Source: a phage. Taken from it: DNA of 53,024 bases. Under the pieces are notes generated by a model. That model was given only the letters and a program-made list of their open reading frames with translations. It searched no databases and was not told the DNA's origin. The position numbers and the translations under genes were made by a program. The stretch is from the sequence record PZ386956.1. One strand, 5' to 3'. This document shows, piece by piece, positions 1,451-52,730 of the stretch; the first letter of the stretch is position 1, and each line of letters begins with the position of its first letter.

Positions 1451-3013
1451 ATGTCGATAACCCCAAGCAGCACGCCTAATGTCGGATACCAGCGTCCTGA
1501 GCTGACTAAGAACGCTGGTAAGTACCGAATGATTAAGGACTGCATCGAGGGGCAGGAAGCTGTTAAAGCACGCGGTGATTTTTATCTGCCTCGTCCTGAC
1601 CCTACGAACTGCACAGAAGAAAACCTGATGCGGTACAATTCGTACCTGCGTCGCGCTGTGTTCTATAACGTACTACAGCGAACTCTTTCGGGTATGACTG
1701 GCCTGGTATTCCAGCAGCAACCTGAGATGCTGATGCCTGATGATATGGAAGTGCTGAAAGTAAATATCGACGGTGCAGGTATCGGTGCTATTCAGCAAAT
1801 GCGTAAGTGCTTTAAATCAGTGCTTGCGTTTGGACGGGCAGGATTGCTGACTGACTTTCCAAAAGCACGTATCGGTGAGTTTGGTGAATCCATTGGTTTT
1901 ACCCGTAAAGAACTAATGGACGGAGAAGTGCAGCCGACAGTAACGCTGTACATGCCATGGCAGATTATAAACTGGCGAGAAGAGTATCGCAACGGCAAAG
2001 TGATGCTCACTCAAGTTGTCATTTGCGAGCAAATACCGGGGGTTACTGATGGCTTTCAGCAAGACTACACACCCGTGTGGCGTCACCTTTACCTGGATGA
2101 AGAAGGCAATTGCAACCAGTCTTTGTGGGTCAATAAGGGCGACAAGAACGCGCAGAACGTCTCCGGCGGCGCGGTGTATGTCACGCAAGAGAATGTTGTC
2201 CTACGCGACTCCAATGGCTTACCGCTGAAGTTTATTCCGTTCCAGTTTATTGGTTCTGAAACAAACAGCGCTGAGATTGACCCTCCGCCGATGTACGACT
2301 TAGCTGTGCTTAATATTGCACACTACCGTAACTCTGCTGACTACGAAGAATCATGCTTCGTAACAGGTCAACCCACAGTATGGGCTTCTGGACTTACTGA
2401 GGCCTGGGTTGAGGATGTGCTTAAAGGTGAACTGCGACTCGGTTCGTTTGGTGGTATTCCGCTGCCGGCTAACGCCGCTGTAGGTATCATTCAGACCAGT
2501 CCTAACACTCAGCCGTTTGAAGCGATGAAGCAAAAAGAAGCACAGATGATTGCAATCGGTGCTCGACTCATTCGTGAGAATGGTAAGGTAGAACGACGCG
2601 AAGTTGAGATTAAGAATGAAGCTGCATCTGAGGCTTCGCTTATCGTAACTGTTGCGCAGAACGTTGAAGCTGCTTATCGGAAAGCAATCGAATGGTGTGG
2701 CCTGTTCTACGGACACCCTAAAGAAGAAATTACGATTAACCTCAGCTACAACTTCATCTATAGCCAGTTGACTTATCAAGAACGTCAGCAGCTGGTTAAC
2801 GAATGGATTGCTGGTGCTATCACGTTCAGTGAGATGCGTAGTAATCTCAAACAGGCTGGCATTGCTAAACTCACTGACGAAGAAGCTAAGAAGCTCATTG
2901 ATGAAGAGCTGGCTGAACGTGATGCACGTGAGGTAGCAAAAGAAGCAGAAAAGAACGCTCAAGCAGCTAAGAACAGCGATGGGCAGGAAAATAATCCAGA
3001 AAAAACTGAATAA
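1451..3013 (+). CDS. portal protein
   Basis: 520-aa ORF immediately downstream of terL (conserved head-gene order); acidic C-terminus; ATG at 1451 after TAA. Confidence 0.8.
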   Translation: MSITPSSTPNVGYQRPELTKNAGKYRMIKDCIEGQEAVKARGDFYLPRPDPTNCTEENLMRYNSYLRRAVFYNVLQRTLSGMTGLVFQQQPEMLMPDDMEVLKVNIDGAGIGAIQQMRKCFKSVLAFGRAGLLTDFPKARIGEFGESIGFTRKELMDGEVQPTVTLYMPWQIINWREEYRNGKVMLTQVVICEQIPGVTDGFQQDYTPVWRHLYLDEEGNCNQSLWVNKGDKNAQNVSGGAVYVTQENVVLRDSNGLPLKFIPFQFIGSETNSAEIDPPPMYDLAVLNIAHYRNSADYEESCFVTGQPTVWASGLTEAWVEDVLKGELRLGSFGGIPLPANAAVGIIQTSPNTQPFEAMKQKEAQMIAIGARLIRENGKVERREVEIKNEAASEASLIVTVAQNVEAAYRKAIEWCGLFYGHPKEEITINLSYNFIYSQLTYQERQQLVNEWIAGAITFSEMRSNLKQAGIAKLTDEEAKKLIDEELAERDAREVAKEAEKNAQAAKNSDGQENNPEKTE

Positions 3014-3018
3014 AGCTA

Positions 3019-3047
3019 TTTACTTTCGGTTTACCTGGCTATATAAT
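3019..3047 (+). promoter_or_regulatory. sigma70-type promoter TTTACT-N17-TATAAT
   Basis: Exact TTTACT (3019-3024), 17-nt spacer, TATAAT (3042-3047) upstream of the scaffold-capsid operon; same consensus recurs at several module boundaries. Confidence 0.45.
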
Positions 3048-3190
3048 CCTTCATGTCAACCGCGCAACAGCCGGCCACGAGAGTCTGCAGGGCTCAGTGG
3101 ATTTCGGATGGCTGGCTGCGCGGTTTGACCCAAACCTGTTCAGAGCCCACTTGAGTGGATTGAGCCCCTCTCATATAGGATTGTAAAATT

Positions 3191-4907: not shown

Positions 4908-4937
4908 GGCGAGCTGACTAGCTCGCCTTTTTTATTT
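4908..4937 (+). terminator. rho-independent terminator after capsid gene
   Basis: GGCGAGCT-gact-AGCTCGCC hairpin followed by TTTTTTATTT. Confidence 0.7.
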
Positions 4938-4963
4938 ACACGTATAAAGTTCTGGTATATAAT
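4935..4963 (+). promoter_or_regulatory. sigma70-type promoter TTTACA-N17-TATAAT
   Basis: TTTACA 4935-4940, 17-nt spacer, TATAAT 4958-4963, immediately after the capsid terminator and before the neck genes. Confidence 0.45.
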
Positions 4964-6355: not shown

Positions 6356-6806
6356 CGGGACATGTATTATTGGTGAAGAGTCTGGTACAGTTGACGGTAG
6401 TCCGTATGTTTACTTGCGCCCTGGCGACGCATATGACTTCGGACCTCCTCGAACCAGACAAGGCGCTGACGGCTTTGAGTACGTCAGTAAGCCTATGATG
6501 ACATCTGTACGTATTACAGCTGTCGGTAAGAATGCTGCTGAGCTAATGCGTAAGCTACACATAGCACTGGGTAGTTCACCAGCTAAGCAGTTTAACCGTT
6601 TACGACATTATGCAATAACCAAAATATCGAAGATTGATAATGTCGGTGGTGCTATCGGTGCAGGCTATGCCCAGAAGTCAATGATGACTGTCGACATTAG
6701 CTATGTACATAAAGTTAAAATTGAGCAACCGTACATCTACAAGGTTGACATCACTTGTATGGATGATAACGGTAACAAAGCGACTGGTACAGTAGAGGAA
6801 CCGTAA
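6279..6806 (+). CDS. hypothetical virion protein
   Basis: Start chosen at ATG 6279 (MATTTLQQF) with GGAG 5 nt upstream; track ORF starts 6249; overlaps previous gene by 77 nt in another frame. Confidence 0.4.
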   Translation: MATTTLQQFSIKDLRELVQKLLPLPDGTCIIGEESGTVDGSPYVYLRPGDAYDFGPPRTRQGADGFEYVSKPMMTSVRITAVGKNAAELMRKLHIALGSSPAKQFNRLRHYAITKISKIDNVGGAIGAGYAQKSMMTVDISYVHKVKIEQPYIYKVDITCMDDNGNKATGTVEEP

Positions 6807-10392: not shown

Positions 10393-10431
10393 TTTACTTA
10401 ACCGAGGCGCCAGCCTATAATAAGCTGGCGC
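10393..10431 (+). promoter_or_regulatory. promoter TTTACT-N17-TATAAT embedded in an 8-bp inverted repeat
   Basis: TTTACT 10393-10398, TATAAT 10416-10421; arms GCGCCAGC / GCTGGCGC (10407-10414, 10424-10431) flank the -10 element. Confidence 0.4.
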
Positions 10432-13233: not shown

Positions 13234-13258
13234 AAATTAATTAACTTTGCACTGGCCA

Positions 13259-13287
13259 TTTACTTGGTTAAACTTACTGGGTATAAT
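13259..13287 (+). promoter_or_regulatory. sigma70-type promoter TTTACT-N17-TATAAT
   Basis: TTTACT 13259-13264, 17-nt spacer, TATAAT 13282-13287 (TGGGTATAAT extended -10) upstream of the tail module. Confidence 0.45.
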
Positions 13288-13319
13288 GGCCGGAAAGTCC
13301 ACCCAAGAGGTAAACAAAA

Positions 13320-17194: not shown

Positions 17195-18087
17195 GTGACA
17201 TCTTTGCTGGAATTACTGATGCTGCCAACGACTTGTACCAAGATGCCCGTGACAGACTCATGGGCGACGGTACAACCACCTTACGCTTCCGCAACTGCGG
17301 AGGCATTAAGATGGATGCTGTCACTAACGAAGAACATCAGTCTGACCTTGACATCGCTGACAACGAACTTGAGTCCGGGGCTAAGGCTTCGGACCATGCT
17401 GCAGTACAACCAAAAGTTATTACTGTAACTGGTGTTGTAGTTGGCTATATCGACGAGTCGATTCAAGAGTCAACAATTAACGACGTAACCGGCTTACGGT
17501 CTATGGATTTCTTGGATGATATTCAGCTTCCACAGGTAGTGTCTACTGTCCTCGAAGGAACAAGGGACTTTGCCGTTAACAAGCTAGTCTCATTCATAGA
17601 CTGGGGCGGTTTAGACGCCACCATTTCACGCTCTTTAGTTCCATGGCTTCCTGACTTTAGTATAGCTGAACAACTTAAGTCTTCGGACAACATGAGGATT
17701 GAACAGGTATACCGTACACTGCTGGATTTACAGAAAAACGTTATTTACTGTGACGTTGATACTGGTATCTTCAAGTATACGAATATGCTTTTGAAGTCTG
17801 TTCGTGTTGTGCAGGAGAAAGATGGTTCAGCTACGTTTACCCTTACGTTCCGTGAAGTCATTGAAGTACCGATTGTAGTTACAAACGCTGTAGCCGCTAA
17901 GTCGACAGGCCGCCCTGCTAATAACGGCACTAAGAAAAGCGGACGTGCACAAGGTCAGGGTGATGCCACCAGTAAGAAGGACATAAACACAACTACACCG
18001 ATTAGCGAGAAACGTGTAAACGATAACCGCGGTTTTGGTGTAACGCTCGGTGACATGTTTGGCTTTAACTTACGAGGCATATTCTGA
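17191..18087 (+). CDS. tail/baseplate protein (Mu gpN-like position)
   Basis: 298-aa ORF overlapping the tape measure stop (ATGA); function from synteny only. Confidence 0.45.
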   Translation: MSDIFAGITDAANDLYQDARDRLMGDGTTTLRFRNCGGIKMDAVTNEEHQSDLDIADNELESGAKASDHAAVQPKVITVTGVVVGYIDESIQESTINDVTGLRSMDFLDDIQLPQVVSTVLEGTRDFAVNKLVSFIDWGGLDATISRSLVPWLPDFSIAEQLKSSDNMRIEQVYRTLLDLQKNVIYCDVDTGIFKYTNMLLKSVRVVQEKDGSATFTLTFREVIEVPIVVTNAVAAKSTGRPANNGTKKSGRAQGQGDATSKKDINTTTPISEKRVNDNRGFGVTLGDMFGFNLRGIF

Positions 18088-18479
18088 TGATATTTACCAC
18101 AACTGCTTTCCTTGACATTATAGGTAATGATGGTTCTGGTATTTACGACTTGGAACCTACCTCCGAAGGTAAGCAATCAATATCAATTTCTATCGCTGGA
18201 TATACGTATAACATTGAGTTGTACTATAACACGGTAGGTCAGCTCTGGCAGGCTACAGTGACTGACATATCAAGTAATGCTGTACTTTGTTCCAGTTATG
18301 CTTTACAATATGGGCGTATTGCTTTTGGTAACTGGGACACGCGTATAGCGTTGCTGGTAAGTGACAAATCCTCCAGCCGCATCGGTCCTATGACTACAGA
18401 TGACATGGGAGGACGTTGCAGTGTCTACATCGTCGACAAAACAGCCTACCCGTCAGTTTGGCCGCGCGTTAAAGCTTGA
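18087..18479 (+). CDS. baseplate-associated hypothetical protein
   Basis: 130-aa ORF coupled to upstream gene. Confidence 0.4.
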   Translation: MIFTTTAFLDIIGNDGSGIYDLEPTSEGKQSISISIAGYTYNIELYYNTVGQLWQATVTDISSNAVLCSSYALQYGRIAFGNWDTRIALLVSDKSSSRIGPMTTDDMGGRCSVYIVDKTAYPSVWPRVKA

Positions 18480-24613: not shown

Positions 24614-24715
24614 CTAATTGCTACCAGCAAGCTTGTGCAGTTGCTGGTAGTGTTTCTTTTACGCTTGAGTCGTGCTATAATCCACTCTGGGTATACAATA
24701 AACCGGAGATATGGG

Positions 24716-26021: not shown

Positions 26022-26246
26022 TTAGCGTTTTCCTTTCAGCTCGTTATACTGCGCACATGCAGCACACAGCACTGTACCGGGTAAAAGCTGACGTCGTTTT
26101 TCTTCAATGTCTTCCCCACACTGGTAGCACGTCAGCGGGCTTACTCCGGTGTATCTTACTCGGTTCGATAGTGCTGCGTCCCGGGCAACTTGTTCAGCTT
26201 CAGAAGCCATATCAGTAATGTCCGATGTGCGCATAGTCTCAATCAT
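26022..26246 (-). CDS. TraR/DksA-family C4 zinc-finger protein
   Basis: 74 aa with CxxC...(17)...CxxC (CYQCGEDIEEKRRQLLPGTVLCAAC). Confidence 0.65.
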   Translation of the reverse strand: MIETMRTSDITDMASEAEQVARDAALSNRVRYTGVSPLTCYQCGEDIEEKRRQLLPGTVLCAACAQYNELKGKR

Positions 26247-31418: not shown

Positions 31419-31447
31419 ATTATACCACATCACTCTCTAGTGGTAAA
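31419..31447 (-). promoter_or_regulatory. promoter TTTACC-N17-TATAAT with extended -10 and internal palindrome
   Basis: On minus strand: TTTACCACtagagagtgatgTGGTATAAT; ACCAC/GTGGT arms span the spacer. Confidence 0.45.
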
Positions 31448-31472
31448 GCACTTTTTATGCTTCGGGTAAAAT

Positions 31473-31502
31473 AAAAAGGACCAGCGTTAACTGGTCCTTT
31501 TG
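31473..31502. terminator. bidirectional rho-independent terminator
   Basis: AAAAA-GGACCAG-cgttaa-CTGGTCC-TTTT: 7-bp GC stem flanked by A-run and T-run, so it terminates in either orientation. Confidence 0.6.
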
Positions 31503-31552
31503 GCAGGGTGGCGTAAGGAGATACAAGGAATCGCAGTTATGCAACCAGGCAG

Positions 31553-31641
31553 CGCATATGAGATTGGCTAAAGGACTTACCGACTTAGTCCCCGCGACGA
31601 GTCAGAAAGGAGGTACCGTCAAGTAGCCAATCGCATATGCG
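31553..31641. repeat. long stem-loop element 1 (18-bp inverted repeat, 1 mismatch, ~53-nt loop)
   Basis: cGCATATGaGATTGGCTA ... TAGCCAATCgCATATGCg; loop contains nested hairpin GGACT-taccgact-tAGTCC. Confidence 0.6.
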
Positions 31642-31642
31642 T

Positions 31643-31727
31643 TACTTGCTGTGTGCTCTTACCACATGAAAAGTATATAGCGTTACACTTATCACACAGT
31701 TGTAGTGGCAAAAGCACACAGCGAGTA
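31643..31727. repeat. long stem-loop element 2 (15-bp inverted repeat with one G-T pair, 55-nt loop)
   Basis: TACTTGCTGTGTGCT ... AGCACACAGCGAGTA; inner 10 bp perfect. Confidence 0.6.
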
Positions 31728-31732
31728 CAACC

Positions 31733-31819
31733 TTAGTTGTGGTGTCTTAGCACCTGAGTTACTGTGGATAACCTGCACCCGACGGGTGTCAAAAAGATAC
31801 GCCAAAACACCACAACTAA
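31733..31819. repeat. long stem-loop element 3 (13-bp perfect inverted repeat, 61-nt loop)
   Basis: TTAGTTGTGGTGT ... ACACCACAACTAA; loop contains hairpin CACCCG-a-CGGGTG; followed by 12-bp palindrome CCAGGCGCCTGG (31840-31851). Confidence 0.6.
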
Positions 31820-32070
31820 AATTGTGACCGCCGTCTACACCAGGCGCCTGGGGTCAAGGTAGCGAGCCAATACCCTTTTCAGCGTTGGAGGAATCGAACC
31901 TCACACATCACGGCTTTTACCAAATCTCGGTCAGCGAGCAGAATTGAACTGCATTCACTGGACACCCTCACTGTTTCAACACACCAGGCTTAATTGATTG
32001 TTGATAAGAAGAGAGATGTAAGGATGTCCATTGAATGCACCTCCGTAGAGGTGCGTTCAGATCAGCGCTA

Positions 32071-32586: not shown

Positions 32587-32615
32587 AATATACGTCATTT
32601 AAAAGAGTGTGTAAA
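32587..32615 (-). promoter_or_regulatory. promoter TTTACA-N17-TATATT
   Basis: Minus strand TTTACAcactcttttaaatgacgTATATT about 45 nt upstream of the KA-rich gene start. Confidence 0.4.
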
Positions 32616-34523: not shown

Positions 34524-34581
34524 TTATCATCTCCTCATTAACTTTATATATTATACCACTTCCTTGTGGTAAAGTATACTT

Positions 34582-36608: not shown

Positions 36609-36638
36609 ATTATACGCCACTTTTTATCATGGCGTAAA
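36609..36638 (-). promoter_or_regulatory. promoter TTTACG-N18-TATAAT with internal palindrome
   Basis: Minus strand TTTACGCCAtgataaaaagTGGCGTATAAT; arms CGCCA/TGGCG. Confidence 0.4.
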
Positions 36639-37758: not shown

Positions 37759-37818
37759 ATTCTCTCTCCTCATGTGTATAGAGGTATTATACACCACTTA
37801 CATGGGGTAAGTACACTA

Positions 37819-39219: not shown

Positions 39220-39333
39220 TTCTTGTTTCCTTGTATACCAGTTTGATTGTACGCCAGAGATATTCCCTGCGCATGTGCTTTATTGCTTAACCGTTAAAGA
39301 CATTATATCATTAGTGAGTGGTGACGTACACAT

Positions 39334-40348: not shown

Positions 40349-40798
40349 TTACTCGGCTTCTTCCGTAGCTGCCGGGGTGAATGTTACAGTCGGAATACCA
40401 GGCGAGGTCTTCACAACAGGGTCGACGATAGCCAGCTGTTCTGGTGTCAGGTTACGGTATGCAGTAACTGACATTTCATACTTGGTTTTAAACAGCTTGG
40501 CAACAACAGTCTTCGGTAACTTCTTCATTACGTCAGGCACAAGCTTCTGGTCTAGCGAGCGGTTAACCTTCTGCTCAACCTTGAGTTTACCAGGTACGCC
40601 ATGCATACTGAACTCAACCGTTTGTGTACCTTCTTTACCGCGGTTGATAATCATGTCACGTTCAAGACGAGCCTTAATGGTCCGGCGCAATGTCTCCTGG
40701 TCAGCTTTCGCTTGTGCCATCCAGCGGTTCAGATTCGCCAGCTTGTCGTACAGCTGTTCCGTGTCCATCGATTCCAGTTCTTGTGGGGTCAGTGCCAT
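40349..40798 (-). CDS. hypothetical protein
   Basis: Start ATG 40798 (GAGG RBS, MALTPQELESMD...); 149 aa. Confidence 0.5.
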   Translation of the reverse strand: MALTPQELESMDTEQLYDKLANLNRWMAQAKADQETLRRTIKARLERDMIINRGKEGTQTVEFSMHGVPGKLKVEQKVNRSLDQKLVPDVMKKLPKTVVAKLFKTKYEMSVTAYRNLTPEQLAIVDPVVKTSPGIPTVTFTPAATEEAE

Positions 40799-41069
40799 CA
40801 GTTGTTTCCTCAGGTTGCATGTGCATAGTTGCACCGATCAGTAAGCAATAGTTATTGAACATTGTACGTAGCGCTTGGCCCGCAGCAATATCCGTTACGT
40901 CTATTATACCACTTTTAGTGGTGACGCGTAAAGCTTTTTCTTTCTTTGTTTTTTCCACGAATGCAATGCTGATGATTTCTTCCGCGTGGATTACGTGAAT
41001 GGTACCAGCAAACTCACCAGTCTTAGCTGGCGCCTGATACACTAACGACATAGCTGGTTGACTACTCAT
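40701..41069 (-). CDS. hypothetical protein (3' part overlaps next gene and an internal promoter-like site)
   Basis: Strong AGGAG RBS before ATG 41069; protein-like first ~90 codons; last ~30 codons overlap 40349..40798 in another frame. Confidence 0.4.
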   Translation of the reverse strand: MSSQPAMSLVYQAPAKTGEFAGTIHVIHAEEIISIAFVEKTKKEKALRVTTKSGIIDVTDIAAGQALRTMFNNYCLLIGATMHMQPEETTDGTDPTRTGIDGHGTAVRQAGESEPLDGTSES

Positions 41070-41517: not shown

Positions 41518-41610
41518 TGGTTGTATCTCCTTAGCAGAATGTACGTTTATTATGTATATAAAGGAGGGGAAAGTAAATAGATATAAATGTATAAAATACA
41601 TAAAAGTCTA

Positions 41611-41640
41611 TTTACTCTGGTTTAATAACGTGTATATAAT
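41611..41640 (+). promoter_or_regulatory. promoter TTTACT-N18-TATAAT
   Basis: TTTACT 41611-41616 and TATAAT 41635-41640 in the divergent AT-rich region, upstream of the 41671 gene. Confidence 0.4.
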
Positions 41641-41670: not shown

Positions 41671-42003
41671 ATGATAAAGCCAAAACTGTTGCGGCATATT
41701 CGCAACGGTATTAAGCTACTCGCTGAAGGCAATGAGTATGCCTGCAAGCAACGCGGTATTACAAAAGTCGGCCTGTTCAATAAAGAGTTACCAACTCGCT
41801 ACTTTACCAAATCACCACTAACACTCGTACCTGCAGCGGAGTATTATAAAGACCCCGAAGCAGCCAGGGCTAAAATCAAGGAAGGTCTTGACCGACTTGT
41901 AGAGGAAGGCTATTTGACAGTACGTCAACACACTGAATCATCTTATTACTACAAGCCAACTTCTAAGGTAACCAGCAATGACAATGACGAGTCAGCCGAG
42001 TGA
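41671..42003 (+). CDS. hypothetical protein
   Basis: 110-aa ORF with AAGAGGAG RBS; overlaps primase-helicase start. Confidence 0.5.
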   Translation: MIKPKLLRHIRNGIKLLAEGNEYACKQRGITKVGLFNKELPTRYFTKSPLTLVPAAEYYKDPEAARAKIKEGLDRLVEEGYLTVRQHTESSYYYKPTSKVTSNDNDESAE

Positions 42004-44512: not shown

Positions 44513-44516
44513 AATC

Positions 44517-44566
44517 AAGGGCTTATGTAGTAAAATACGTAAGCCCTTATTTTATATACTCTTTTT
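44517..44566 (+). terminator. terminator-like hairpin after primase-helicase gene
   Basis: AAGGGCTTA-(14 nt)-TAAGCCCTT followed by T-rich ATTTTATATACTCTTTTT. Confidence 0.45.
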
Positions 44567-44568
44567 GC

Positions 44569-44902
44569 TCCGGTAGACTAGTTATGGAATAAATAAACCG
44601 TGTTTTTCGAATTAAGTGCACTTAAGCTACTGTTTTATATACTCTTTTCTTTTTACATGAATTAGTAAATATATGGAGCCCTTTATAAAGAAAAAGGGGG
44701 GTAATAAGGGGATACAAGTACCGGATAAAAGGGGTATATATTTATTTATTATTATTATTATTATTATATATTATTAATTATATTAGAAGTAATAAAAACA
44801 GCTACTTAGAGGCGTCTATATGTATGATCCGGTTTATCTCTTTATTAATATCAGAACCGGATGAAAAAAAATTACGCCGGCGAAAAAAAATAAAAAACCG
44901 GA
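44569..44902. promoter_or_regulatory. putative replication-origin region: ACCGGA iteron-like repeats, AT tract, A-tracts
   Basis: Five ACCGGA/TCCGGT copies (44569, 44720, 44828, 44856, 44897), 8-bp IR ATCCGGTT/AACCGGAT, palindrome CGCCGGCG, two A8 runs; no ORF. Confidence 0.35.
44735..44786. repeat. pure A/T tract with (ATT)n microsatellite
   Basis: About 52 nt of only A/T including TTATT(ATT)6-like run. Confidence 0.7.
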
Positions 44903-45026
44903 CTGATAAATAATTCGTAGGCATGTCTAAAGCCAGGCGTGGCAAGCTTCGGTGATATTTACTATGTTATTGTATGTTAGTGTGCGTTATAATATATTTA
45001 TTATTCAACAGATGAGTTGTGCAACT

Positions 45027-45533
45027 ATGGATCCAATTGTAAAAGTATTTGAAGGTAAAAATATCACATTTTCATCAATTAAGAGGGGTACCAAAATGGC
45101 ATCCCTCATTGTTGTTAAAGGAAGCGATTTAGCTAAAGCGCTGGGCTACAGCTACGCGGAAAAACTTTATAAAAGGTTAGACAGCGATTATAAAATTACT
45201 GATGACAAAGGAGCAGTATGGGTAACTGAACCTGGTATTTATCAGGCTATATTCGGTTCGCAGCTTGAATCAGCTAAAGCATTTCAGCGCTGGGCATACG
45301 AAGAAGTATTTCCCACCATTCGTGGGAATGGTTATTACGTTACACCAGAGCTTCAACCAGTGCTGGATCTACTGTCTGATGAAATAGACTTACTACGTGC
45401 ATATGCTACAGCTGACTGCCACGGAAGAGCAAGGCTTAAGTCAAGAATTATGACGATATGGAAAAAACAAGTAGAAAATGGTAACTCTTTGGACCGCGTA
45501 GTCCAGATTTTAAAAGGAAACAGTGCATGGTAA
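45027..45533 (+). CDS. Bro-N domain protein
   Basis: Bro-N signature (VFEGKNITF...SLIVVKGSDLAKALGY...GIYQAIFGSQLESAKAFQRWAYEEVFPTIRGNGYY); start could also be 44952 or 45012. Confidence 0.65.
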   Translation: MDPIVKVFEGKNITFSSIKRGTKMASLIVVKGSDLAKALGYSYAEKLYKRLDSDYKITDDKGAVWVTEPGIYQAIFGSQLESAKAFQRWAYEEVFPTIRGNGYYVTPELQPVLDLLSDEIDLLRAYATADCHGRARLKSRIMTIWKKQVENGNSLDRVVQILKGNSAW

Positions 45534-45958
45534 ATATTCGTGTTATTGGCCAGAACTTTGAGAGAAAGATGGCTAAAAAATTCAACGAATCTTTTGGACT
45601 TGACTGCCAGCGTAACCTGCAGCAATCAATAAATGGCGGGGATGACTTGCTTGGTATACCGTTTTTCAGCGTTGAACTGAAGAAGCACAAGACCAAGTCT
45701 ATCGGAACATGGTGGAGACAGTGTGCGGCATCGGCAAAGGCTCAGAACAAGATGCCGGTACTGATATACGAACTACCAAGAAAACAGCCTACCGTGGTGA
45801 TGAATAAGGCTGATGTGATTGACTGCTTTCCAAGTGGCACGACTTTTAACGAGGCATCGAACCGCCTCTTTGTGGGTCTAGTAGAATTAACATGGGAACA
45901 ATTTTGCCGGGTCTACAACTATTACGTTGCGCCCGGCACTCAATATCACGTCAATTAA
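45527..45958 (+). CDS. VRR-NUC-like PD-(D/E)xK nuclease (putative)
   Basis: 143 aa; D...E-x-K arrangement (GDDLLGIPFFSVELKK) typical of small phage nucleases/resolvases; overlaps Bro-N stop. Confidence 0.45.
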   Translation: MVNIRVIGQNFERKMAKKFNESFGLDCQRNLQQSINGGDDLLGIPFFSVELKKHKTKSIGTWWRQCAASAKAQNKMPVLIYELPRKQPTVVMNKADVIDCFPSGTTFNEASNRLFVGLVELTWEQFCRVYNYYVAPGTQYHVN

Positions 45959-46140
45959 TCTTGTTTCAGCTCGTCACAAATAACACGCTGATTTTTGGCA
46001 GGGATAATACCAAGATTCAGTAAGGTGTATGGACTATCGGCGGCACATTGTTCAACGGTAGTCCATTCAGGTTTGGATTCAACAATTTTGTAACTACAAT
46101 CATGAGTAGCCACACATGTTGCCAGGATTAAGCCAATCAC
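45955..46140 (-). CDS. small hypothetical protein (hydrophobic N-terminus, possible lipoprotein)
   Basis: 61-aa ORF, GTG start overlapping upstream stop (GTGA); N-terminus MIGLILATC. Confidence 0.4.
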   Translation of the reverse strand: MIGLILATCVATHDCSYKIVESKPEWTTVEQCAADSPYTLLNLGIIPAKNQRVICDELKQD

Positions 46141-46316
46141 AAGTAATCGCCTTCAACCAGGAACTCAAACAATTGGTTGTAGACGTTGCAACCTTTAGCG
46201 AAAGAGCTTTCAGCAGGTTTACCATCGCGGACGATCATCATATACTCACCGCCATGGATGTCCACCCAGTATTGCATGCCACCTTTGACCGGGTTACGTT
46301 GTAAGAATTTAAACAT
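46137..46316 (-). CDS. small hypothetical protein (59 aa, not in ORF track)
   Basis: ATG with AAGGAG RBS 6 nt upstream, TAATG-coupled to upstream gene and GTGA-coupled to downstream gene; reads MFKFLQRNPVKGGMQYWVDIHGGEYMMIVRDGKPAESSFAKGCNVYNQLFEFLVEGDYL. Confidence 0.45.
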   Translation of the reverse strand: MFKFLQRNPVKGGMQYWVDIHGGEYMMIVRDGKPAESSFAKGCNVYNQLFEFLVEGDYL

Positions 46317-46561
46317 TATTTGCTCCTTATTCCAAGTTTATTCAATAGCCAAATTGTCATGTCAACCCAGGTTAACGGTACAGTTTTCGGGGGTTGATAA
46401 TTCCAGCAGCTTGCAGTTCTTTGTATTTCTGCTTGGCGCCGCTCCGCTTCGCGTAATACCGCATCGTCAGAAGTGCCGGCAGAAAAAAGATCGGTAACAC
46501 CAGATAAATCGCGTTGATTAACACGTCGAGCAATGTCATATAAATCATCCTTAGAAAACAT
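46316..46561 (-). CDS. hypothetical protein
   Basis: 81-aa ORF in early leftward cluster. Confidence 0.45.
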   Translation of the reverse strand: MFSKDDLYDIARRVNQRDLSGVTDLFSAGTSDDAVLREAERRQAEIQRTASCWNYQPPKTVPLTWVDMTIWLLNKLGIRSK

Positions 46562-46700
46562 AAGCCAATACCATAAGAATTATCAGAAAGATCCCAACCA
46601 GCTTCCTCATGGCCCGACCTTCAGCATATGCAGGATTCACAACAGAATACTCAACAACATGTTTACAGCGGACCATAAGGCCTCCACTTGTGGGTTAATT

Positions 46701-46737
46701 CAATCATGAGGACTTTTGGCAAATCCTCATTGTTGAA
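46701..46737 (-). repeat. conserved intergenic hairpin, copy 1
   Basis: Plus strand CAATCATGAGGACTTTTGGCAAATCCTCATTGTTGAA, immediately 3' of the stop of gene 46738..46941. Confidence 0.55.
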
Positions 46738-46941
46738 TCACTCCATCATTACCTGAACTATTATTATACACTCTTTATTGAAGCGGGTAAATACCTTTCC
46801 TCCATTGGTGCGTTTAGCCCCAGATTTTAGAGCTGACTGGCACCAGACATGCCACTCCTCAACTGTCAAGAATTTTTGCTCAGCTTTGGGTGGTAGTCCA
46901 TTGGCAAGGTCTACCGTAGTAAATTTGACCAGCGGCATCAC
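46738..46941 (-). CDS. hypothetical protein
   Basis: 67-aa ORF, ATGA-coupled to upstream gene. Confidence 0.4.
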   Translation of the reverse strand: MMPLVKFTTVDLANGLPPKAEQKFLTVEEWHVWCQSALKSGAKRTNGGKVFTRFNKECIIIVQVMME

Positions 46942-47327
46942 TTAACCTCAAATTTTGACTCGTCATATTCCGGATCAGTCACGTCCCGGGTAGCACAATT
47001 TTTGATTGCCTCCCAGTAACGTTGGGCGTCATCGCCATCGACATAAACTGTCCAGTGGCCGTAACCACCTTCAAATCTGTCCCAGGCTTGTTCCCAGACT
47101 TTGCCATCTTCCAGCTTGTACCAAGTTGGACGACTGTCAAACTCGCGGATTGGATGGTACCCCATCAAAGGATTCATCAGGTCAATAATGTCTTCCCGAC
47201 TAATCTCCTGGTTCTCCCACAACACCGTCATGAATTGCTCAAACTTGAAGGCGTTTGGCAGAACTTTGATGACTTCACCATCACGATATACGGTATAGGT
47301 ACCATCTTCGCATTTTGCACTGTACAT
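46938..47327 (-). CDS. hypothetical protein
   Basis: Start ATG 47327 (AGGAG RBS, MYSAKCEDG...); track first Met at 47360 lies inside hairpin copy 2. Confidence 0.5.
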   Translation of the reverse strand: MYSAKCEDGTYTVYRDGEVIKVLPNAFKFEQFMTVLWENQEISREDIIDLMNPLMGYHPIREFDSRPTWYKLEDGKVWEQAWDRFEGGYGHWTVYVDGDDAQRYWEAIKNCATRDVTDPEYDESKFEVK

Positions 47328-47353
47328 GTTTCTCTCTCCTATTGATATAATTT

Positions 47354-47394
47354 CAATCATGAACTATCACAACTTTGGATAGTTCATTGTTGAA
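47354..47394 (-). repeat. conserved intergenic hairpin, copy 2 (compensatory stem)
   Basis: CAATCATGA-ACTATC-acaacttt-GGATAGTT-CATTGTTGAA: same flanks as copies 1 and 3 but a different, still complementary, stem. Confidence 0.55.
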
Positions 47395-47395
47395 A

Positions 47396-47569
47396 CTATA
47401 CTAACTTTGTTGCGATCTGAATTGTCAGCCGGAAATCTTCCATCAAGTTATCAAACTCTTTGGAACCGCCAACCGCATCAGATATTTGATCTTTCACGAT
47501 TTGGGCATTTGATTCCAGTAATTCAATCAGGTGCGCCAATTCGTCTTCAGTCAATTTCAGATCTTTCAT
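47396..47569 (-). CDS. hypothetical protein
   Basis: Start ATG 47569 overlapping upstream stop (ATGA); 57 aa. Confidence 0.4.
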   Translation of the reverse strand: MKDLKLTEDELAHLIELLESNAQIVKDQISDAVGGSKEFDNLMEDFRLTIQIATKLV

Positions 47570-47823
47570 AATGCATCCACCCAAGCCATAACTTTTGCCA
47601 GTCTTACAACGTCTTCATGGTCCCGATCGCCATCAGAAAATTCGCTGGCGATGATACCCATAATTGACGCCAGATTCATGTTGATGATGTACGAGTGTTC
47701 CCGCACTTCATCAATTCCTGAATCTATCACCAATTCCGCAAATTCCTGCGAACCTTCATCCCATTCAGCCCAATACTGCTCAGCATAAAAGTCCAGTTCT
47801 TTTTTCATCTCAATATCAGTCAT
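47566..47823 (-). CDS. hypothetical acidic protein
   Basis: 85-aa ORF, acidic. Confidence 0.45.
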   Translation of the reverse strand: MTDIEMKKELDFYAEQYWAEWDEGSQEFAELVIDSGIDEVREHSYIINMNLASIMGIIASEFSDGDRDHEDVVRLAKVMAWVDAL

Positions 47824-47828
47824 TTTGA

Positions 47829-47987
47829 TTACTCCTCAGAACCTGAAAATTTGTCGTCAATGGTTTCAACGATATAATCAAGAGTTGAAGTGTGAGAACT
47901 ATCAGAAAAAGTGCCCATCTTCTCTAACTCAATCATCATATCCCGCAAAGCCATCGCCTGGTCTTTGGTCAGTTTGATTTTAAGCAT
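47829..47987 (-). CDS. hypothetical protein
   Basis: Start ATG 47987 (GGAG RBS, MLKIKLTKDQ...); 52 aa; track start 48029 lies inside hairpin GATGGCACT-acttg-AGTGCCATC. Confidence 0.35.
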   Translation of the reverse strand: MLKIKLTKDQAMALRDMMIELEKMGTFSDSSHTSTLDYIVETIDDKFSGSEE

Positions 47988-48051
47988 GTTTCTCTCCTGT
48001 TGATTGTGAATAATTTCAATTGATGGCACTACTTGAGTGCCATCTCAAAAA

Positions 48052-48621
48052 TTACTCTTCAGTTTCTTGTGCTTCAGTTTCAGGTTTTTCTTCAGTCTCA
48101 GGTTTTTCGCCTGTTACTGATTTGCCCTCAGTCACTTTACCAGATTTTACATCATTACGGTAATATGACATATAGGATTGGACAACACGTTTTGCCCTAA
48201 TATCATCCGCTTCCATCCCACAGGCTTTCATGGCATCAGCCAGCGCCAATTTGGAATCTTCTTTGTCCATCAAGTTGTAATCCTTGAATACTGCATAGCA
48301 TGTATCCTTGGTTGACGGACCGGATGAAGTTTTGCGGGTGCCACCTGCAGATGCACGTGATGCCGCAACTTTGACCTCTTCAACTTCCAGTTGGTTAAGC
48401 TCATCAAACAAGGCTTTCACCAGCACTTCTTTGGAGTCTTTGACAGTTACAGAACTTTCATCATTAAGGGACTTAATCATCTTAATGATCTGGTTATTGG
48501 CAAAGTACTGAAGACTATCCATCTGCACTACAATAGTCCCAAGACTTTCAGTAGTCAGACCAGATTTTACAGACTCAACAGAAAAGGCGGAAGTCAGGTA
48601 AACATAGTTGATAGTAGTCAT
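48052..48621 (-). CDS. hypothetical protein with acidic PETEE-repeat tail
   Basis: Start ATG 48621 (MTTINYVYL...); 189 aa; C-terminus EKPETEEKPETEAQETEE. Confidence 0.5.
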   Translation of the reverse strand: MTTINYVYLTSAFSVESVKSGLTTESLGTIVVQMDSLQYFANNQIIKMIKSLNDESSVTVKDSKEVLVKALFDELNQLEVEEVKVAASRASAGGTRKTSSGPSTKDTCYAVFKDYNLMDKEDSKLALADAMKACGMEADDIRAKRVVQSYMSYYRNDVKSGKVTEGKSVTGEKPETEEKPETEAQETEE

Positions 48622-48677
48622 TGATGTATCCTCATTGATAGAATTTTTGATAAGTGTCAATCCTTGACAAGTAAGTC

Positions 48678-48715
48678 CAATCATGAGGACTTTTACCAAG
48701 TCCCCATTGTTGGAA
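48678..48715 (-). repeat. conserved intergenic hairpin, copy 3
   Basis: CAATCATGAGGACTTTTACCAAGTCCCCATTGTTGGAA immediately 3' of the stop of gene 48717..48890. Confidence 0.55.
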
Positions 48716-48716
48716 A

Positions 48717-48890
48717 TTACTTCAATTTATCCAGAATTGATTGGAGTAACTTGACCCTCACTTCCTGGTCTTTGACATCCCTTCCACTTTCCCTGTCATA
48801 TTCCAACAGGTCACTTTCCATAAATAAGGTTGTGTCCAGTTGGTCAACCAATAATTCCAGTTCTTCTTGGGACAATTCTAAAACTTTCAT
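48717..48890 (-). CDS. hypothetical protein
   Basis: Start ATG 48890 (AGGAG RBS, MKVLELSQEE...); 57 aa, acidic helical. Confidence 0.4.
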   Translation of the reverse strand: MKVLELSQEELELLVDQLDTTLFMESDLLEYDRESGRDVKDQEVRVKLLQSILDKLK

Positions 48891-48894
48891 CTTA

Positions 48895-49044
48895 TTACTC
48901 CTGATATTTAACAACTTGGGATTGGATAAAGTCAACACAATCTTCCACATCCATTGACTCAAAGTCTGGAACTGGACCAGTATTTATATTGACACACCAA
49001 AGCCCTTCATTGGTATCATACCAAAGTGTGTAGTTGTCCTTCAT
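48895..49044 (-). CDS. hypothetical protein
   Basis: Start ATG 49044 (AGAGGTG RBS, MKDNYTLWYD...); 49 aa; track GTG start 49098 is an alternative. Confidence 0.35.
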   Translation of the reverse strand: MKDNYTLWYDTNEGLWCVNINTGPVPDFESMDVEDCVDFIQSQVVKYQE

Positions 49045-49428
49045 AATAGTCACCTCTTGTATTAGTTTCCAGTTGTGACTACTGTTACCAATAGTCACTG
49101 GTTGAAACTATTACTAGTGTTACTATCAACAAGAAACATGTTACCAAATTGTTAAAGAGCAAAAGGTACCATTGACATCTACCAGATGTACCTGTTGACT
49201 GGTTAAGTACTACCTACCCAAATTAAACCATACCAATACCCTCCAGACCAGTTGACTGGTCACTCAGTCATCACATTCAATAAATATATAATAGTCCAAT
49301 CCCTCTTGATTGTACACCTTATATTTGTAAGTTTATGCAAGTTTTTAGAAATGATAATCACTTGCGGTTGAGAGTGGTTCTCATATACAATTGATATAGT
49401 TTCACATGTAATTACTCAACTCAAAATG

Positions 49429-49483
49429 GTCGGCAGGGGTTATAATAACATAGGGGTGCCACTCGAAGGAGCCGGCGAAATTA
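49429..49483. repeat. 55-nt imperfect direct repeat, copy A
   Basis: GGTCGGCAGGGGTTATAATAACATAGGGGTGCCACTCGAAGGAGCCGGCGAAATT; about 65-70% identical to copy B. Confidence 0.45.
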
Positions 49484-49604
49484 TTTCTAAAAATATAATT
49501 TCAATCTGAATTATAGACGCTTTGTACTATAACGGCCGAAGTAGTTCACCCGGTAATTGTATCAATCACAATAGTTACCAGAGTAATCATTTCAATTGAA
49601 ATAG

Positions 49605-49659
49605 GTGCGGCGGGGGGTAATTTCGCAAGGGTGCTACCTGCCAGGAGCCAGCAAAATTT
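49605..49659. repeat. 55-nt imperfect direct repeat, copy B
   Basis: GGTGCGGCGGGGGGTAATTTCGCAAGGGTGCTACCTGCCAGGAGCCAGCAAAATT followed by T-rich run; shares GGGTGC.AC...AGGAGCC.GC.AAATT core with copy A. Confidence 0.45.
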
Positions 49660-49879
49660 TTTATTTTTTCTCTATTTTCTCCTTATCAGGACCAATCATC
49701 ATCAGATTGATACAACAGGAGCTAACCTTTTGCCTAACACAATAATAAGTGAAGCCCCTCTAAAATTTTTTTATATTTTTCGGAAATTGTGTAGACACTC
49801 ACTAAAAAGTGGTGTACTTTCTCTCCTCCACGCGCTATCATTAATGTGAATCATCAAACGGCCTCACGGTCTCCTACTT

Positions 49880-52669: not shown

Positions 52670-52698
52670 TTTACTTACTTCGCGTAACTCGTTATAAT
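52670..52698 (+). promoter_or_regulatory. sigma70-type promoter TTTACT-N17-TATAAT
   Basis: TTTACT 52670-52675, 17-nt spacer, TATAAT 52693-52698, upstream of the putative small terminase gene. Confidence 0.45.
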
Positions 52699-52730
52699 CC
52701 CGACTATCCGGATTAACGAGGACGACACCC

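What the first reader, a model, noticed from the sequence alone, without database searches (positions are those of the whole stretch)
10393..10431. Phage-wide promoter consensus TTTAC(T/C/A)-N17-TATAAT at module boundaries
Exact TTTACT-N17-TATAAT occurs at 3019..3047, 10393..10421, 13259..13287 and 52670..52698; TTTACA-N17-TATAAT at 4935..4963; TTTACT-N18-TATAAT at 41611..41640; and on the minus strand TTTACC/A/G variants at 31419..31447, 32587..32615 and 36609..36638. All sit in intergenic gaps at the start of operons. The invariant TTTAC -35 differs from the host TTGACA consensus and suggests a common regulatory class, possibly needing a phage factor. At 10393 the -10 element is bracketed by an 8-bp inverted repeat, an operator-like arrangement.
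Basis: seen in the sequence. Interest (0 to 1): 0.5.

Follow-up and report, generated by a model that had tools for sequence, protein, structure and literature searches.

The report
Host-type promoters of a Rosemountvirus phage
The repeated TTTAC-N17-TATAAT motif is a real, conserved set of ordinary host-RNA-polymerase (sigma-70) promoters in a BP63-like Salmonella/E. coli phage; public records of its relatives already annotate them, and the one new detail is a conserved stem-loop wrapped around the -10 box of one of them.

Summary
TTTAC-N17/18-TATAAT occurs 10 times against about 0.05 expected. A relaxed form, T[T/G/A]TAC-N17/18-[T/C]AT[A/C]AT, occurs 19 times against 0.7. About 17 sites lie upstream of genes and point the same way, several directly after terminator hairpins.

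The window is a complete Rosemountvirus genome, 96-98% identical to Salmonella phage BP63. The GenBank records of BP63 and of phage S144 already annotate the orthologue of the 10393 site, and others, as sigma-70-like promoters.

Across five clades the -35 core T-TAC and the -10 box stay fixed while spacers drift to 60% identity.

TTTAC does not imply a phage factor:
- lacUV5 is TTTACA-N18-TATAAT and needs no activator.
- The first 50 kb of phage T4 has 8 TTTAC-type sites on the early-gene strand and no TTGAC-type site.
- Many sites here carry an A-tract like a proximal UP element, and some a TGn extended -10.
- No sigma, anti-sigma or RNA polymerase gene was found, only a DksA-like protein.

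The 8-bp inverted repeat around the -10 at 10393 (10407-10431) is real. It is kept by compensatory changes in relatives, which favours a base-paired hairpin over a protein operator. It has no U-tract, and its function is unresolved.

Verdict: ordinary and essentially already known, with low interest.

The parts
10393..10421 (+). Promoter P10393: TTTACT-N17-TATAAT, 6 nt after the stop of the 985-aa tail-protein gene and 33 nt before the ATG of the Ig-domain structural gene (10454).
   Evidence: The orthologue is annotated 'promoter' in BP63 and in S144. The hexamers are conserved in SE4, ZCSE2, KM/KE25, fHy-Eco03 and SOI901 while the spacer diverges.
10407..10431 (+). Conserved stem-loop or palindrome GCGCCAGC-CTATAATAA-GCTGGCGC with the -10 hexamer in its loop. 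There is no U/T tract on either strand.
   Evidence: It folds at -16.8 kcal/mol, z -4.2, and the orthologues at -13 to -19. 94.6% of cells are paired. Two pairs show compensatory double changes (C-G / U-A / A-U at one pair, A-U / U-A at another). No shuffle out of 500 reaches the covariation score.
3019..3047 (+). Promoter upstream of the scaffold and major-capsid genes (TTTACT-N17-TATAAT), followed by a conserved leader of about 140 nt.
4908..4963 (+). Terminator hairpin GGCGAGCT-gact-AGCTCGCC plus a T-run (4908-4934), directly followed by promoter TTTACA-N17-TATAAT (4935-4963), after the major capsid gene.
   Evidence: The stem covaries in relatives (GGCGTGCT/AGCACGCC, GGGCAAGCT/AGCTTGCCC, GGGAACCT/AGGTTCCC). 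The site is annotated as a promoter in BP63.
13259..13287 (+). Promoter upstream of the tail sheath gene (TTTACT-N17-TATAAT). It is bracketed by GGCCATT/AATGGCC (13254-13291).
24621..24681 (+). Terminator-like hairpin (24621-24650, T-rich tail), then an extended -10 promoter TTTCTT-N17-(TGC)TATAAT (24653-24681) before the holin and lysis cassette.
   Evidence: The TGCTATAAT element is conserved in SE4, KM and fHy-Eco03.
41611..41640 (+). Promoter of the rightward primase operon (TTTACT-N18-TATAAT). The orthologues have TGTACA or TTTACA.
41549..41577 (-). Divergent partner promoter TTTACT-N17-CATAAT for the leftward replication-gene cluster. It shares the 10-bp inverted repeat TCTATTTACT with P41611.
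49813..49841 (+). TGTACT-N17-TATCAT preceded by CTAAAAAGTGG. It is the first promoter of the long rightward unit (gene 14 through the structural genes).
   Evidence: It is conserved with a 17-bp spacer in SE4, fHy-Eco03 and SOI901.
52670..52698 (+). Promoter before the small gene upstream of terL (TTTACT-N17-TATAAT).
31419..31447 (-). TTTACC-N17-(TGG)TATAAT, immediately downstream of a minus-strand terminator (31474-31501).
   Evidence: It is annotated as a promoter in BP63.
32587..32615 (-). TTTACA-N17-TATATT with a long A-tract upstream. The orthologues have TGTACA.
   Evidence: It is annotated as a promoter in BP63.
34550..34578 (-). TATACT-N17-(TGG)TATAAT upstream of the helicase gene.
   Evidence: It is annotated as a promoter in BP63.
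36609..36638 (-). TTTACG-N18-TATAAT upstream of the SSB-like gene.
   Evidence: It is annotated as a promoter in BP63.
37786..37815 (-). TGTACT-N18-TATAAT in the intergenic gap 37759-37818.
   Evidence: It is conserved in SE4.
39302..39330 (-). TGTACG-N17-(TGA)TATAAT in the gap 39220-39333.
   Evidence: It is conserved in four relatives, three of which have CATAAT.
40903..40932 (-). TTTACG-N18-(TGG)TATAAT, inside annotated ORF 73.
46763..46791 (-). TTTACC-N17-TATAAT within the cluster of small leftward genes.
   Evidence: It is conserved in SE4.

Best explanation
The motif marks the phage's own set of about 17 promoters for the host sigma-70 RNA polymerase.

Promoter anatomy:
- A near-perfect -10 box (TATAAT).
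- A 17-18 bp spacer.
- A deliberately sub-consensus -35 box, T-[T/G/A]-T-A-C-n.
- On many sites, an A-tract at about -46 to -38 that resembles the proximal UP-element subsite (AAAAAARNR, from my own knowledge of Estrem et al. 1999).
- On some sites, a TGn extended -10.

This is the architecture of T4 early promoters and of lacUV5, so host holoenzyme can use it unaided.

Layout: the promoters sit at module boundaries, often straight after an intrinsic terminator. That would let each block of genes be re-initiated at its own level. This last step is inferred.

At 10393 the short 67-bp gap also holds a conserved 8-9 bp GC-rich stem whose loop is the -10 box. It is selected for base-pairing. My best guess (about 0.35) is that it forms as an RNA hairpin only in read-through transcripts coming from the tail-protein gene. 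Transcripts started at P10393 begin inside its 3' arm. In read-through RNA it could act as a U-tract-less pause, attenuation or 3'-stabilising element.

Shown: the motif, its enrichment, its conservation, the covariation of the stem, and the prior annotation. Inferred: sigma-70 usage, start sites, and what the hairpin does.
For: Enrichment:
- 10 exact sites against about 0.05 expected.
- 19 relaxed sites against 0.73.
- With a generic sigma-70 weight matrix, the top-scoring sites are nearly all these intergenic TTTAC sites.

Position:
- The sites point the same way as the genes, 33-172 nt upstream of start codons.
- Terminator-promoter pairs lie at 4908/4935, 24621/24653 and 31501/31447.

Conservation across Rosemountvirus, Loughboroughvirus, KM/KE25, fHy-Eco03 and Erwinia phage SOI901:
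- -35 positions 1, 3, 4 and 5 are 100% identical pairwise.
- The -10 box is 98% identical, against 60% for the spacer and 48% for -35 position 6.

Prior annotation:
- BP63 carries features reading 'promoter, similar to TTGACA(N15-18)TATAAT', including the orthologue of 10393.
- S144 annotates exactly TTTACATGGTTGAAGCGCCAGCTTATAAT as a promoter.
- The S144 paper predicts 18 host-type promoters and finds no phage RNA polymerase (PMC7432712).

No factor is needed:
- lacUV5.
- RpoD-only E. coli promoters with TTTACA/C/G.
- T4's first 50 kb has 8 TTTAC and 0 TTGAC, all on the early strand and often with TGG before TATAAT.
- PHROG scans of 30 small proteins find only a DksA-like protein and an ANT-like ORF.

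Hairpin.
Against: - No transcription start-site or in-vitro transcription data exist for this phage group. One literature search on this returned nothing relevant, but its terms were too generic to be informative.
- The conservation profile of the -35 box is not the textbook sigma-70 profile. Position 3 is T and never G, while position 2 varies (T, G or A).
- Most small early proteins have no known function, so a modifying factor cannot be excluded.
- The same promoter type fronts both replication and structural genes, which leaves temporal control unexplained.
- For the hairpin, there is no U-tract. G-U wobble evidence is contradictory between clades: the plus strand is favoured in SE4, ZCSE2 and SOI901, the minus strand in the window. 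Only five independent lineages are available.
Confidence: 0.8

Rival explanations
1. The T-n-TAC element is not a sigma-70 -35 box. It would be the target of a phage-encoded factor, either a sigma-appropriation-like activator or a modifier of sigma region 4, so the promoter class would be phage-specific.
For: - T at -35 position 3 is absolutely conserved, and G is never seen, in about 47 orthologous sites from five clades. Position 2, normally the best-conserved T of sigma-70 -35 boxes, varies T/G/A.
- TTGAC is as frequent as TTTAC in the genome but is never paired with TATAAT.
- Dozens of small early proteins have unknown function.
Against: - TTTAC plus TATAAT is used by unmodified host polymerase at lacUV5 and at T4 early promoters.
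- Several sites carry UP-like A-tracts and TGn, which are host-polymerase elements.
- The first promoters of an infecting genome must work before any phage protein exists.
- No MotA, AsiA, sigma or RNA polymerase homologue was found.
Confidence: 0.1
2. The inverted repeat at 10407-10431 is a DNA operator. A dimeric phage or host protein would bind it and occlude the -10 box to time expression of the gp30/gp31 tail genes.
For: - It is a perfect 8-bp palindrome centred on the -10 box and conserved in all clades.
- Symmetric changes in both arms are also expected if a dimer's specificity drifts.
Against: - The closely related phages KM and fHy-Eco03 differ by a symmetric A-T to T-A swap in the arms. 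That is unlikely if a nearly identical protein reads that base, but it is neutral for base-pairing.
- Half-site centres are about 17 bp apart, an awkward phase for a helix-turn-helix dimer.
- No second copy of the site appeared in the scan for perfect inverted repeats.
- No repressor-like protein was identified.
- The terminator stem at 4908 evolves in the same compensatory way.
Confidence: 0.12
3. The stem acts at the DNA level without a protein. GC-rich arms flanking the -10 box, or cruciform extrusion, would make promoter opening depend on supercoiling or on DksA/ppGpp, tuning P10393.
For: - The stem always keeps the -10 hexamer in the loop, although its register shifts by 1 nt between clades.
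- Wobble evidence does not single out one RNA strand.
- The phage encodes a DksA-like protein.
Against: - An 8-bp cruciform with a 9-nt loop is energetically unfavourable in duplex DNA.
- There is no comparable arrangement at most of the other promoters.
- It is not testable with these tools.
Confidence: 0.12
4. The motif recurrence is chance or compositional bias.
For: None beyond the AT-rich nature of the intergenic DNA.
Against: - No shuffle out of 100 reached the observed counts.
- The sites are correctly oriented and conserved in orthologous positions.
Confidence: 0.01

Closest known systems
Annotated promoters of Salmonella phages BP63 (KM366099 / NC_031250) and S144 (MT663719)
   Same: They are orthologous sequences at the same positions. 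BP63 18082-18111 and S144 6491-6519 correspond to window 10393-10421. BP63 labels its features 'promoter, similar to TTGACA(N15-18)TATAAT with 2bp mismatch'.
   Different: Those annotations are pattern predictions without experiments. They do not note the fixed T at -35 position 3, the TGTAC/TATAC members, or the hairpin around the -10 box.
Bacteriophage T4 early promoters (UP / -35 / TGn / -10 promoters read by unmodified host sigma-70 polymerase)
   Same: The -35 box is (G)TTTAC(T/A), never TTGAC. The -10 box is a perfect TATAAT, often preceded by TGG, and the upstream DNA is AT-rich (review PMC2988021). One T4 site, at 2457 on the minus strand, has a spacer 16/17 identical to window 34550(-).
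   Different: - T4 restricts this class to early genes and has separate middle (MotA/AsiA) and late (gp55) classes. Here the same type also precedes structural and lysis genes.
- No Alt, MotA, AsiA or gp55 homologue is evident.
- Position 2 of the -35 box is variable here.
lacUV5 promoter (TTTACA-N18-TATAAT)
   Same: It has the same hexamers and spacing as 41611, 36609 and 40903, and it is activator-independent (PMC2613000).
   Different: It is a single host promoter mutant, not a genome-wide family, and it has no UP-like A-tract consensus.
Intrinsic (Rho-independent) terminator followed by a promoter at phage module boundaries
   Same: This arrangement is found here at 4908/4935, 24621/24653 and 31501/31447. 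The stem at 10407-10431 is GC-rich and covaries in the same way as those terminator stems.
   Different: The 10407-10431 stem has no U-tract on either strand. It overlaps the -10 box instead of preceding the -35 box, so it fails the defining terminator feature.

Membership tests
Sigma-70 (-35/-10) promoter | A -10 hexamer close to TATAAT, with A at position 2 and T at position 6 | tested here: met
   10 sites have an exact TATAAT. The others have TATATT, CATAAT or TATCAT. The box is 98% conserved across clades.
Sigma-70 (-35/-10) promoter | A -35 hexamer resembling TTGACA, 17 +/- 1 bp upstream of the -10 | tested here: met
   TTTACn matches 4-5 of 6 positions, and TGTACn or TATACn 3-4 of 6. 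The spacer is always 17 or 18 bp and is kept in the orthologues. The G at position 3 is never present.
Sigma-70 (-35/-10) promoter | Located upstream of genes and pointing the same way | tested here: met
   All 10 exact sites and 15 of the 19 relaxed sites point the same way as the local genes, and most lie in the 8% of the genome that is intergenic.
Sigma-70 (-35/-10) promoter | Transcripts start 6-8 nt downstream of the -10, and host holoenzyme alone initiates there | not testable with these tools
   No start-site data were found for this phage group. This needs dRNA-seq, 5'-RACE or in-vitro transcription.
T4-early-type strong phage promoter | A (G)TTTAC -35 box with a consensus -10, AT-rich upstream DNA and frequent TGn | tested here: met
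   T4 bases 1-50000 have 8 TTTAC and 0 TTGAC sites on the early strand. The window sites share TTTAC, TATAAT, A-tracts and TGG/TGA/TGC at several sites.
T4-early-type strong phage promoter | Restricted to immediate-early genes | tested here: not met
   The same motif precedes the scaffold/capsid, tail, sheath and lysis genes as well as the replication genes.
MotA/AsiA-dependent (sigma appropriation) middle promoter | A MotA box centred at -30 in place of the -35 box, and motA/asiA genes in the genome | tested here: not met
   The element is TnTAC at -35, not a MotA box. No such families appear in the PHROG scans or in the annotations of relatives.
Intrinsic terminator (for the stem 10407-10431) | A GC-rich stem-loop directly followed by a U-tract | tested here: not met
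   The stem is present. The tail is ACCCAATAAGAG on the plus strand and CTCGGTTAAGTA on the minus strand, and no orthologue has a T-run. The terminator scan did not call it.
Structured RNA/DNA hairpin under selection (for the stem 10407-10431) | Base-pairing kept through compensatory substitutions | tested here: met
   94.6% of cells are paired. Two of the eight pairs carry double changes, with three pair types at one position. No shuffle out of 500 reaches the score, and slid controls pair at only 20-45%. The sample is small: 7 sequences from 5 lineages.
Palindromic operator | A cognate DNA-binding regulator and, usually, repeated sites | tested here: inconclusive
   No second copy of the palindrome appeared in the scan for perfect inverted repeats. 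No repressor family turned up among the 30 small proteins scanned, but most of them have unknown function.

The most novel reading that the evidence does not exclude
The promoter-embedded inverted repeats may form a family-wide device that tells read-through transcripts from promoter-initiated ones. The repeats are:
- the -10-in-loop stem at 10407-10431;
- the pairing at 52688-52720 between a CTCGTTA sequence in the promoter spacer and the Shine-Dalgarno region of the next gene;
- GGCCATT/AATGGCC around the sheath promoter.

RNA arriving from upstream would fold, and so pause, be processed, or hide the ribosome site. RNA started at the internal promoter lacks the 5' arm and stays open.

A less likely variant is that the invariant T-n-TAC -35 element reflects a phage-imposed change in how sigma region 4 reads DNA.
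Probability: 0.15. Interest if true: 0.5.

Novelty: already known. Interest (0 to 1): 0.2.

Why it matters
Practically, the result gives a clean, conservation-backed promoter map of about 17 sites, with three terminator-promoter pairs, for a genus of Salmonella and E. coli phages that is widely isolated for biocontrol. It also corrects some doubtful small ORF calls that overlap regulatory DNA.

Conceptually it adds little. Strong phage promoters with a perfect -10 box and a TTTAC -35 box are known from T4, and the sites are already annotated in GenBank relatives.

Two modest points could interest transcription specialists. One is the strict exclusion of the consensus G at -35 position 3 across five clades. 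The other is the covarying hairpin that keeps the -10 box in its loop. Both are testable with simple reporter and 5'/3'-end mapping experiments.

Tried and rejected
- Genome-wide avoidance of TTGAC as the reason for TTTAC. Rejected: both pentamers occur 189 times, with observed/expected near 1.
- The 10407-10431 stem as an intrinsic terminator. Rejected: there is no U-tract in any clade.
- Using G-U wobbles to decide which strand folds as RNA. Inconclusive: SE4, ZCSE2 and SOI901 extend the stem with U-G on the plus strand, while the window extends it on the minus strand.
- RNAalifold on the MAFFT alignment of the whole gap. It missed the stem because its register relative to the -10 box shifts by 1 nt between clades. 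I re-aligned the 29-nt hairpin segments in register.
- More orthologues from IMG/VR. Only four isolate genomes were related, and the other hits were unrelated Ig-domain proteins. S144, PK3 and KE25 added no new stem variants.
- A search for a phage transcription factor. PHROG scans of 30 small proteins gave only a DksA-like protein and an ANT-like ORF.
- Rfam and tRNA scans of the window found nothing.
- A literature search for transcriptomes of this phage group was badly specified and returned nothing relevant.
- The T4 genome review (PMC150520) is not held, so I checked the T4 early -35 consensus directly on T4 sequence.
- The intragenic motif matches at 19168, 18281 and 50956 on the plus strand, and the antisense matches at 6681, 6763 and 23897 on the minus strand, were not accepted as promoters. 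Their conservation is confounded by coding constraint, or their orientation is wrong.

Full report
**What the window is.**
A 5-kb query around the finding matches 57 phage records. Forty of them are 95-99% identical, for example Salmonella phage BP63 at 98.0%. Mapping the BP63 genes onto the window shows a complete, colinear Rosemountvirus genome that starts at the large terminase gene.
- Rightward genes run from about 49880, through the end of the window and on from position 1, to 26006. They cover nucleotide metabolism, packaging, head, tail and lysis.
- Leftward replication genes run from 41517 down to 26022.
- A rightward primase unit starts at 41671.
- A cluster of small leftward genes lies at 45955-48621.
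- Intergenic DNA makes up 8% of the genome.

**Check of the observation.**
TTTAC-N17-TATAAT occurs 7 times and TTTAC-N18-TATAAT 3 times, against 0.03 and 0.02 expected. In each search no shuffle out of 100 reached the observed count.
- 32587-32615(-) has TATATT as its -10 box.
- Those two sites lie inside annotated ORFs rather than in gaps.

All ten exact sites point the same way as the local genes. The consensus pentamer TTGAC is never coupled to TATAAT, here or in four relatives. Yet TTGAC and TTTAC are equally frequent in the genome, at 189 each. With a generic sigma-70 weight matrix the best-scoring sites in the window are almost all these intergenic TTTAC sites.

**The full family.**
Looking at every TATAAT in intergenic DNA, and at orthologous alignments, adds further members:
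- TATACT-N17-TATAAT at 34550-34578(-).
- TGTACT-N18-TATAAT at 37786-37815(-).
- TGTACG-N17-TATAAT at 39302-39330(-).
- TTTACT-N17-CATAAT at 41549-41577(-).
- TGTACT-N17-TATCAT at 49813-49841(+).
- An extended -10 promoter, TTTCTT-N17-TGCTATAAT, at 24653-24681(+).

The relaxed pattern T[TGA]TAC-N17/18-[TC]AT[AC]AT occurs 19 times against 0.73 in shuffles, with a maximum of 4. Fifteen of the 19 are correctly placed. With 32587-32615(-) (TATATT) and 24653-24681(+), which fall outside that pattern, the map comes to 17 likely promoters.

Many sites, especially the leftward ones and 49813, carry AAAA(T/G)AAAAG(T)G just upstream of the -35 box. From my own knowledge this resembles the proximal UP-element subsite AAAAAARNR. 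Several have TGn directly before the -10 box.

Three promoters directly follow terminator hairpins, at 4908-4927, 24621-24650 and 31474-31501(-).

**Conservation.**
I compared the window with four other clades:
- Loughboroughvirus SE4, with ZCSE2, S144 and PK3.
- vB_SE1_KM with KE25.
- fHy-Eco03.
- Erwinia phage SOI901.

Their portal proteins are 75-86% identical to the window's.

Orthologous promoters are present at the same gene boundaries. Over 13 orthologous groups and 47 sequences:
- -35 positions 1, 3, 4 and 5 are 100% identical in pairwise comparisons.
- Position 2 is 83% identical (T, G or A) and position 6 is 48%.
- The -10 box is 98% identical and the spacer 60%.

The sites in the window were picked by pattern, which biases this figure. 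The orthologues, however, were mostly read from BLAST alignments, and none has G at position 3.

**Already known?**
Yes, in substance.
- The BP63 GenBank record carries features reading 'promoter, similar to TTGACA(N15-18)TATAAT with 2bp mismatch'. They sit at the orthologues of 4935, 10393, 31419, 32587, 34550 and 36609, among others.
- The S144 record annotates exactly the orthologue of 10393 as a promoter.
- The S144 paper reports 18 predicted host-type promoters, finds no phage RNA polymerase, and proposes a DksA-like protein as a possible modulator (PMC7432712).

**Does TTTAC imply a phage factor?**
The evidence says no.
- The lac -35 box is TTTACA. lacUV5, which is TTTACA-N18-TATAAT, is independent of CRP (PMC2613000).
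- RpoD holoenzyme alone binds E. coli promoters with TTTACA/C/G (PMC3946193).
- T4 early promoters are read by unmodified host polymerase and are described as UP/-35/TGn/-10 promoters (PMC2988021).
- In the first 50 kb of T4 I found 8 TTTAC-type and 0 TTGAC-type sites, all on the early-gene strand and mostly preceded by G. They often have TGG before TATAAT.
- PHROG scans of 30 small proteins, and the annotations of relatives, show no sigma, anti-sigma, MotA/AsiA-like or RNA polymerase gene. They show only a DksA-like zinc-finger protein (26022-26246) and an ANT-like ORF.

The strict exclusion of G at position 3 is real. It is probably best read as selection for a strong but not over-tight promoter, combining a perfect -10 box, UP-like DNA and an imperfect -35 box. 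That reading is inference. A phage modifier of the polymerase cannot be excluded, and I give it about 0.1.

**The inverted repeat at 10393.**
GCGCCAGC-CTATAATAA-GCTGGCGC spans 10407-10431 and encloses the -10 box. The orthologous arms in each clade are:

| Phage | Left arm | Right arm |
|---|---|---|
| window, SE13 | GCGCCAGC | GCTGGCGC |
| ZCSE2, S144, PK3 | GCGCCAGC | GCTGGCGC |
| SE4 | CGCCAGC | GCTGGCG |
| KM, KE25 | TGCCAGCTA | TAGCTGGCA |
| fHy-Eco03 | GTGCCTGC | GCAGGCAC |
| SOI901 | AGCCAGTTA | TAGCTGGCT |

Further points:
- On an in-register alignment, 94.6% of cells pair.
- One pair appears as C-G, U-A and A-U, and another as A-U and U-A.
- No shuffle out of 500 reaches the covariation score, and slid controls pair at only 20-45%.
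- Each orthologue folds at -13 to -19 kcal/mol, with z-scores of -3 to -6.
- The first ten spacer bases next to the stem have diverged freely.
- The A-T to T-A swap between the closely related KM and fHy-Eco03 favours selection for pairing rather than for a protein half-site.
- The bona fide terminator stem at 4908 evolves in the same compensatory way.
- The stem has no U-tract on either strand, so it is not a canonical terminator.
- Wobble pairs do not identify the folding strand.

A transcript started at P10393 would begin near 10427-10428, inside the 3' arm. An RNA hairpin could therefore exist only in read-through RNA from the tail-protein gene. My estimates for its role are: pause, attenuation or 3'-stabilising element about 0.35; protein-free DNA-level effect 0.12; operator 0.12. 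The rest is unknown.

**Verdict.**
- The 'common promoter class' reading is right.
- The 'needs a phage factor' reading is not supported.
- 'Operator-like' should be replaced by 'conserved hairpin of unknown role'.

The finding is ordinary, and public annotation already covers it. Interest is low (0.2).

Noticed in passing
window 34550-34578 (-) versus T4 (L022) about 2429-2457 (-): The helicase promoter here reads TATACTttaccacaaggaagtggTATAAT. A T4 early-strand site reads TTTACTttaccacaaggatgtggTATAAT. The 17-nt spacers are identical at 16 of 17 positions, and both contain the inverted repeat TACCAC-N6-GTGGTA. This could reflect shared ancestry, transfer, or a constraint on the spacer.
   Followed up: no
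window 52688-52720 (+): CTCGTTA, overlapping the start of the -10 box of P52670, pairs with TAACGAG, which overlaps the Shine-Dalgarno GAGG of the next gene. In SE4, KM, fHy-Eco03 and SOI901 the pairing is kept through A-to-G changes that give U-G wobbles on the plus strand. Only read-through RNA would contain both arms, so it might mask the ribosome site in read-through transcripts.
   Followed up: partly
window 13254-13291 (+): GGCCATT...AATGGCC brackets the whole sheath-gene promoter, overlapping both the -35 and the -10 box. TGGCCA upstream and TGGCC downstream are conserved in all clades. Because GGCC is self-complementary, this could be two copies of one palindromic site rather than a hairpin.
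   Followed up: partly
window 3048-3190 (+): The leader between P3019 and the scaffold gene is about 140 nt long. It contains a block (GTCAACCGCGCAACAGCCGGCCACGAGAGTCTG) that is nearly identical in all clades. One relative annotates a 32-aa ORF there. It may be a regulatory RNA leader or a tiny gene.
   Followed up: no
window 48622-49879: This is a 1.26-kb non-coding region between the divergent small-gene cluster and gene 14. It holds two copies of the near-palindrome ACC(A/T)GTTGACTGGT (49190-49203 and 49247-49260) and a 29-nt imperfect inverted repeat (49056-49117). It also holds the only TTGACA-type promoter-like sites in intergenic DNA (48989 and 49172). In fHy-Eco03 the equivalent DNA contains the end of a 3,699-bp terminal direct repeat, so this region probably holds the genome end and early control or origin sequences.
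   Followed up: partly
window 31582-32070: This is a 489-bp gap with no called gene. Erwinia phage SOI901 carries tRNA-Gln and tRNA-Pro at the equivalent position. ARAGORN finds no tRNA anywhere in the window, and Rfam finds nothing.
   Followed up: partly
window 31420-31581 (-), the orthologue of BP63_58: This annotated small ORF overlaps both a strong terminator (31474-31501) and the promoter at 31419-31447, so it is probably not a real gene. Likewise, ORF 73 (40701-41069) contains promoter 40903-40932, overlaps ORF 72 by 98 bp, and has no PHROG match.
   Followed up: partly
window 44513-45533: An AT-rich gap (44513-44951) is followed by a 193-aa ORF with an ANT / anti-repressor-type domain (PHROG 130, E = 1e-20). 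BP63 has only about 430 bp between its primase and gp01, so this looks like an accessory insertion.
   Followed up: partly
window 41572-41616: The divergent promoters P41577(-) and P41611(+) are arranged back to back. Their -35 boxes form a perfect 10-bp inverted repeat (AGTAAATAGA ... TCTATTTACT) separated by 25 AT-rich bases.
   Followed up: no
window 26022-26246 (-): A DksA-like zinc-finger protein (PHROG 54, E = 3e-18) is encoded at the end of the replication operon. It is the only recognisable polymerase-directed factor and a candidate modulator of these promoters.
   Followed up: no
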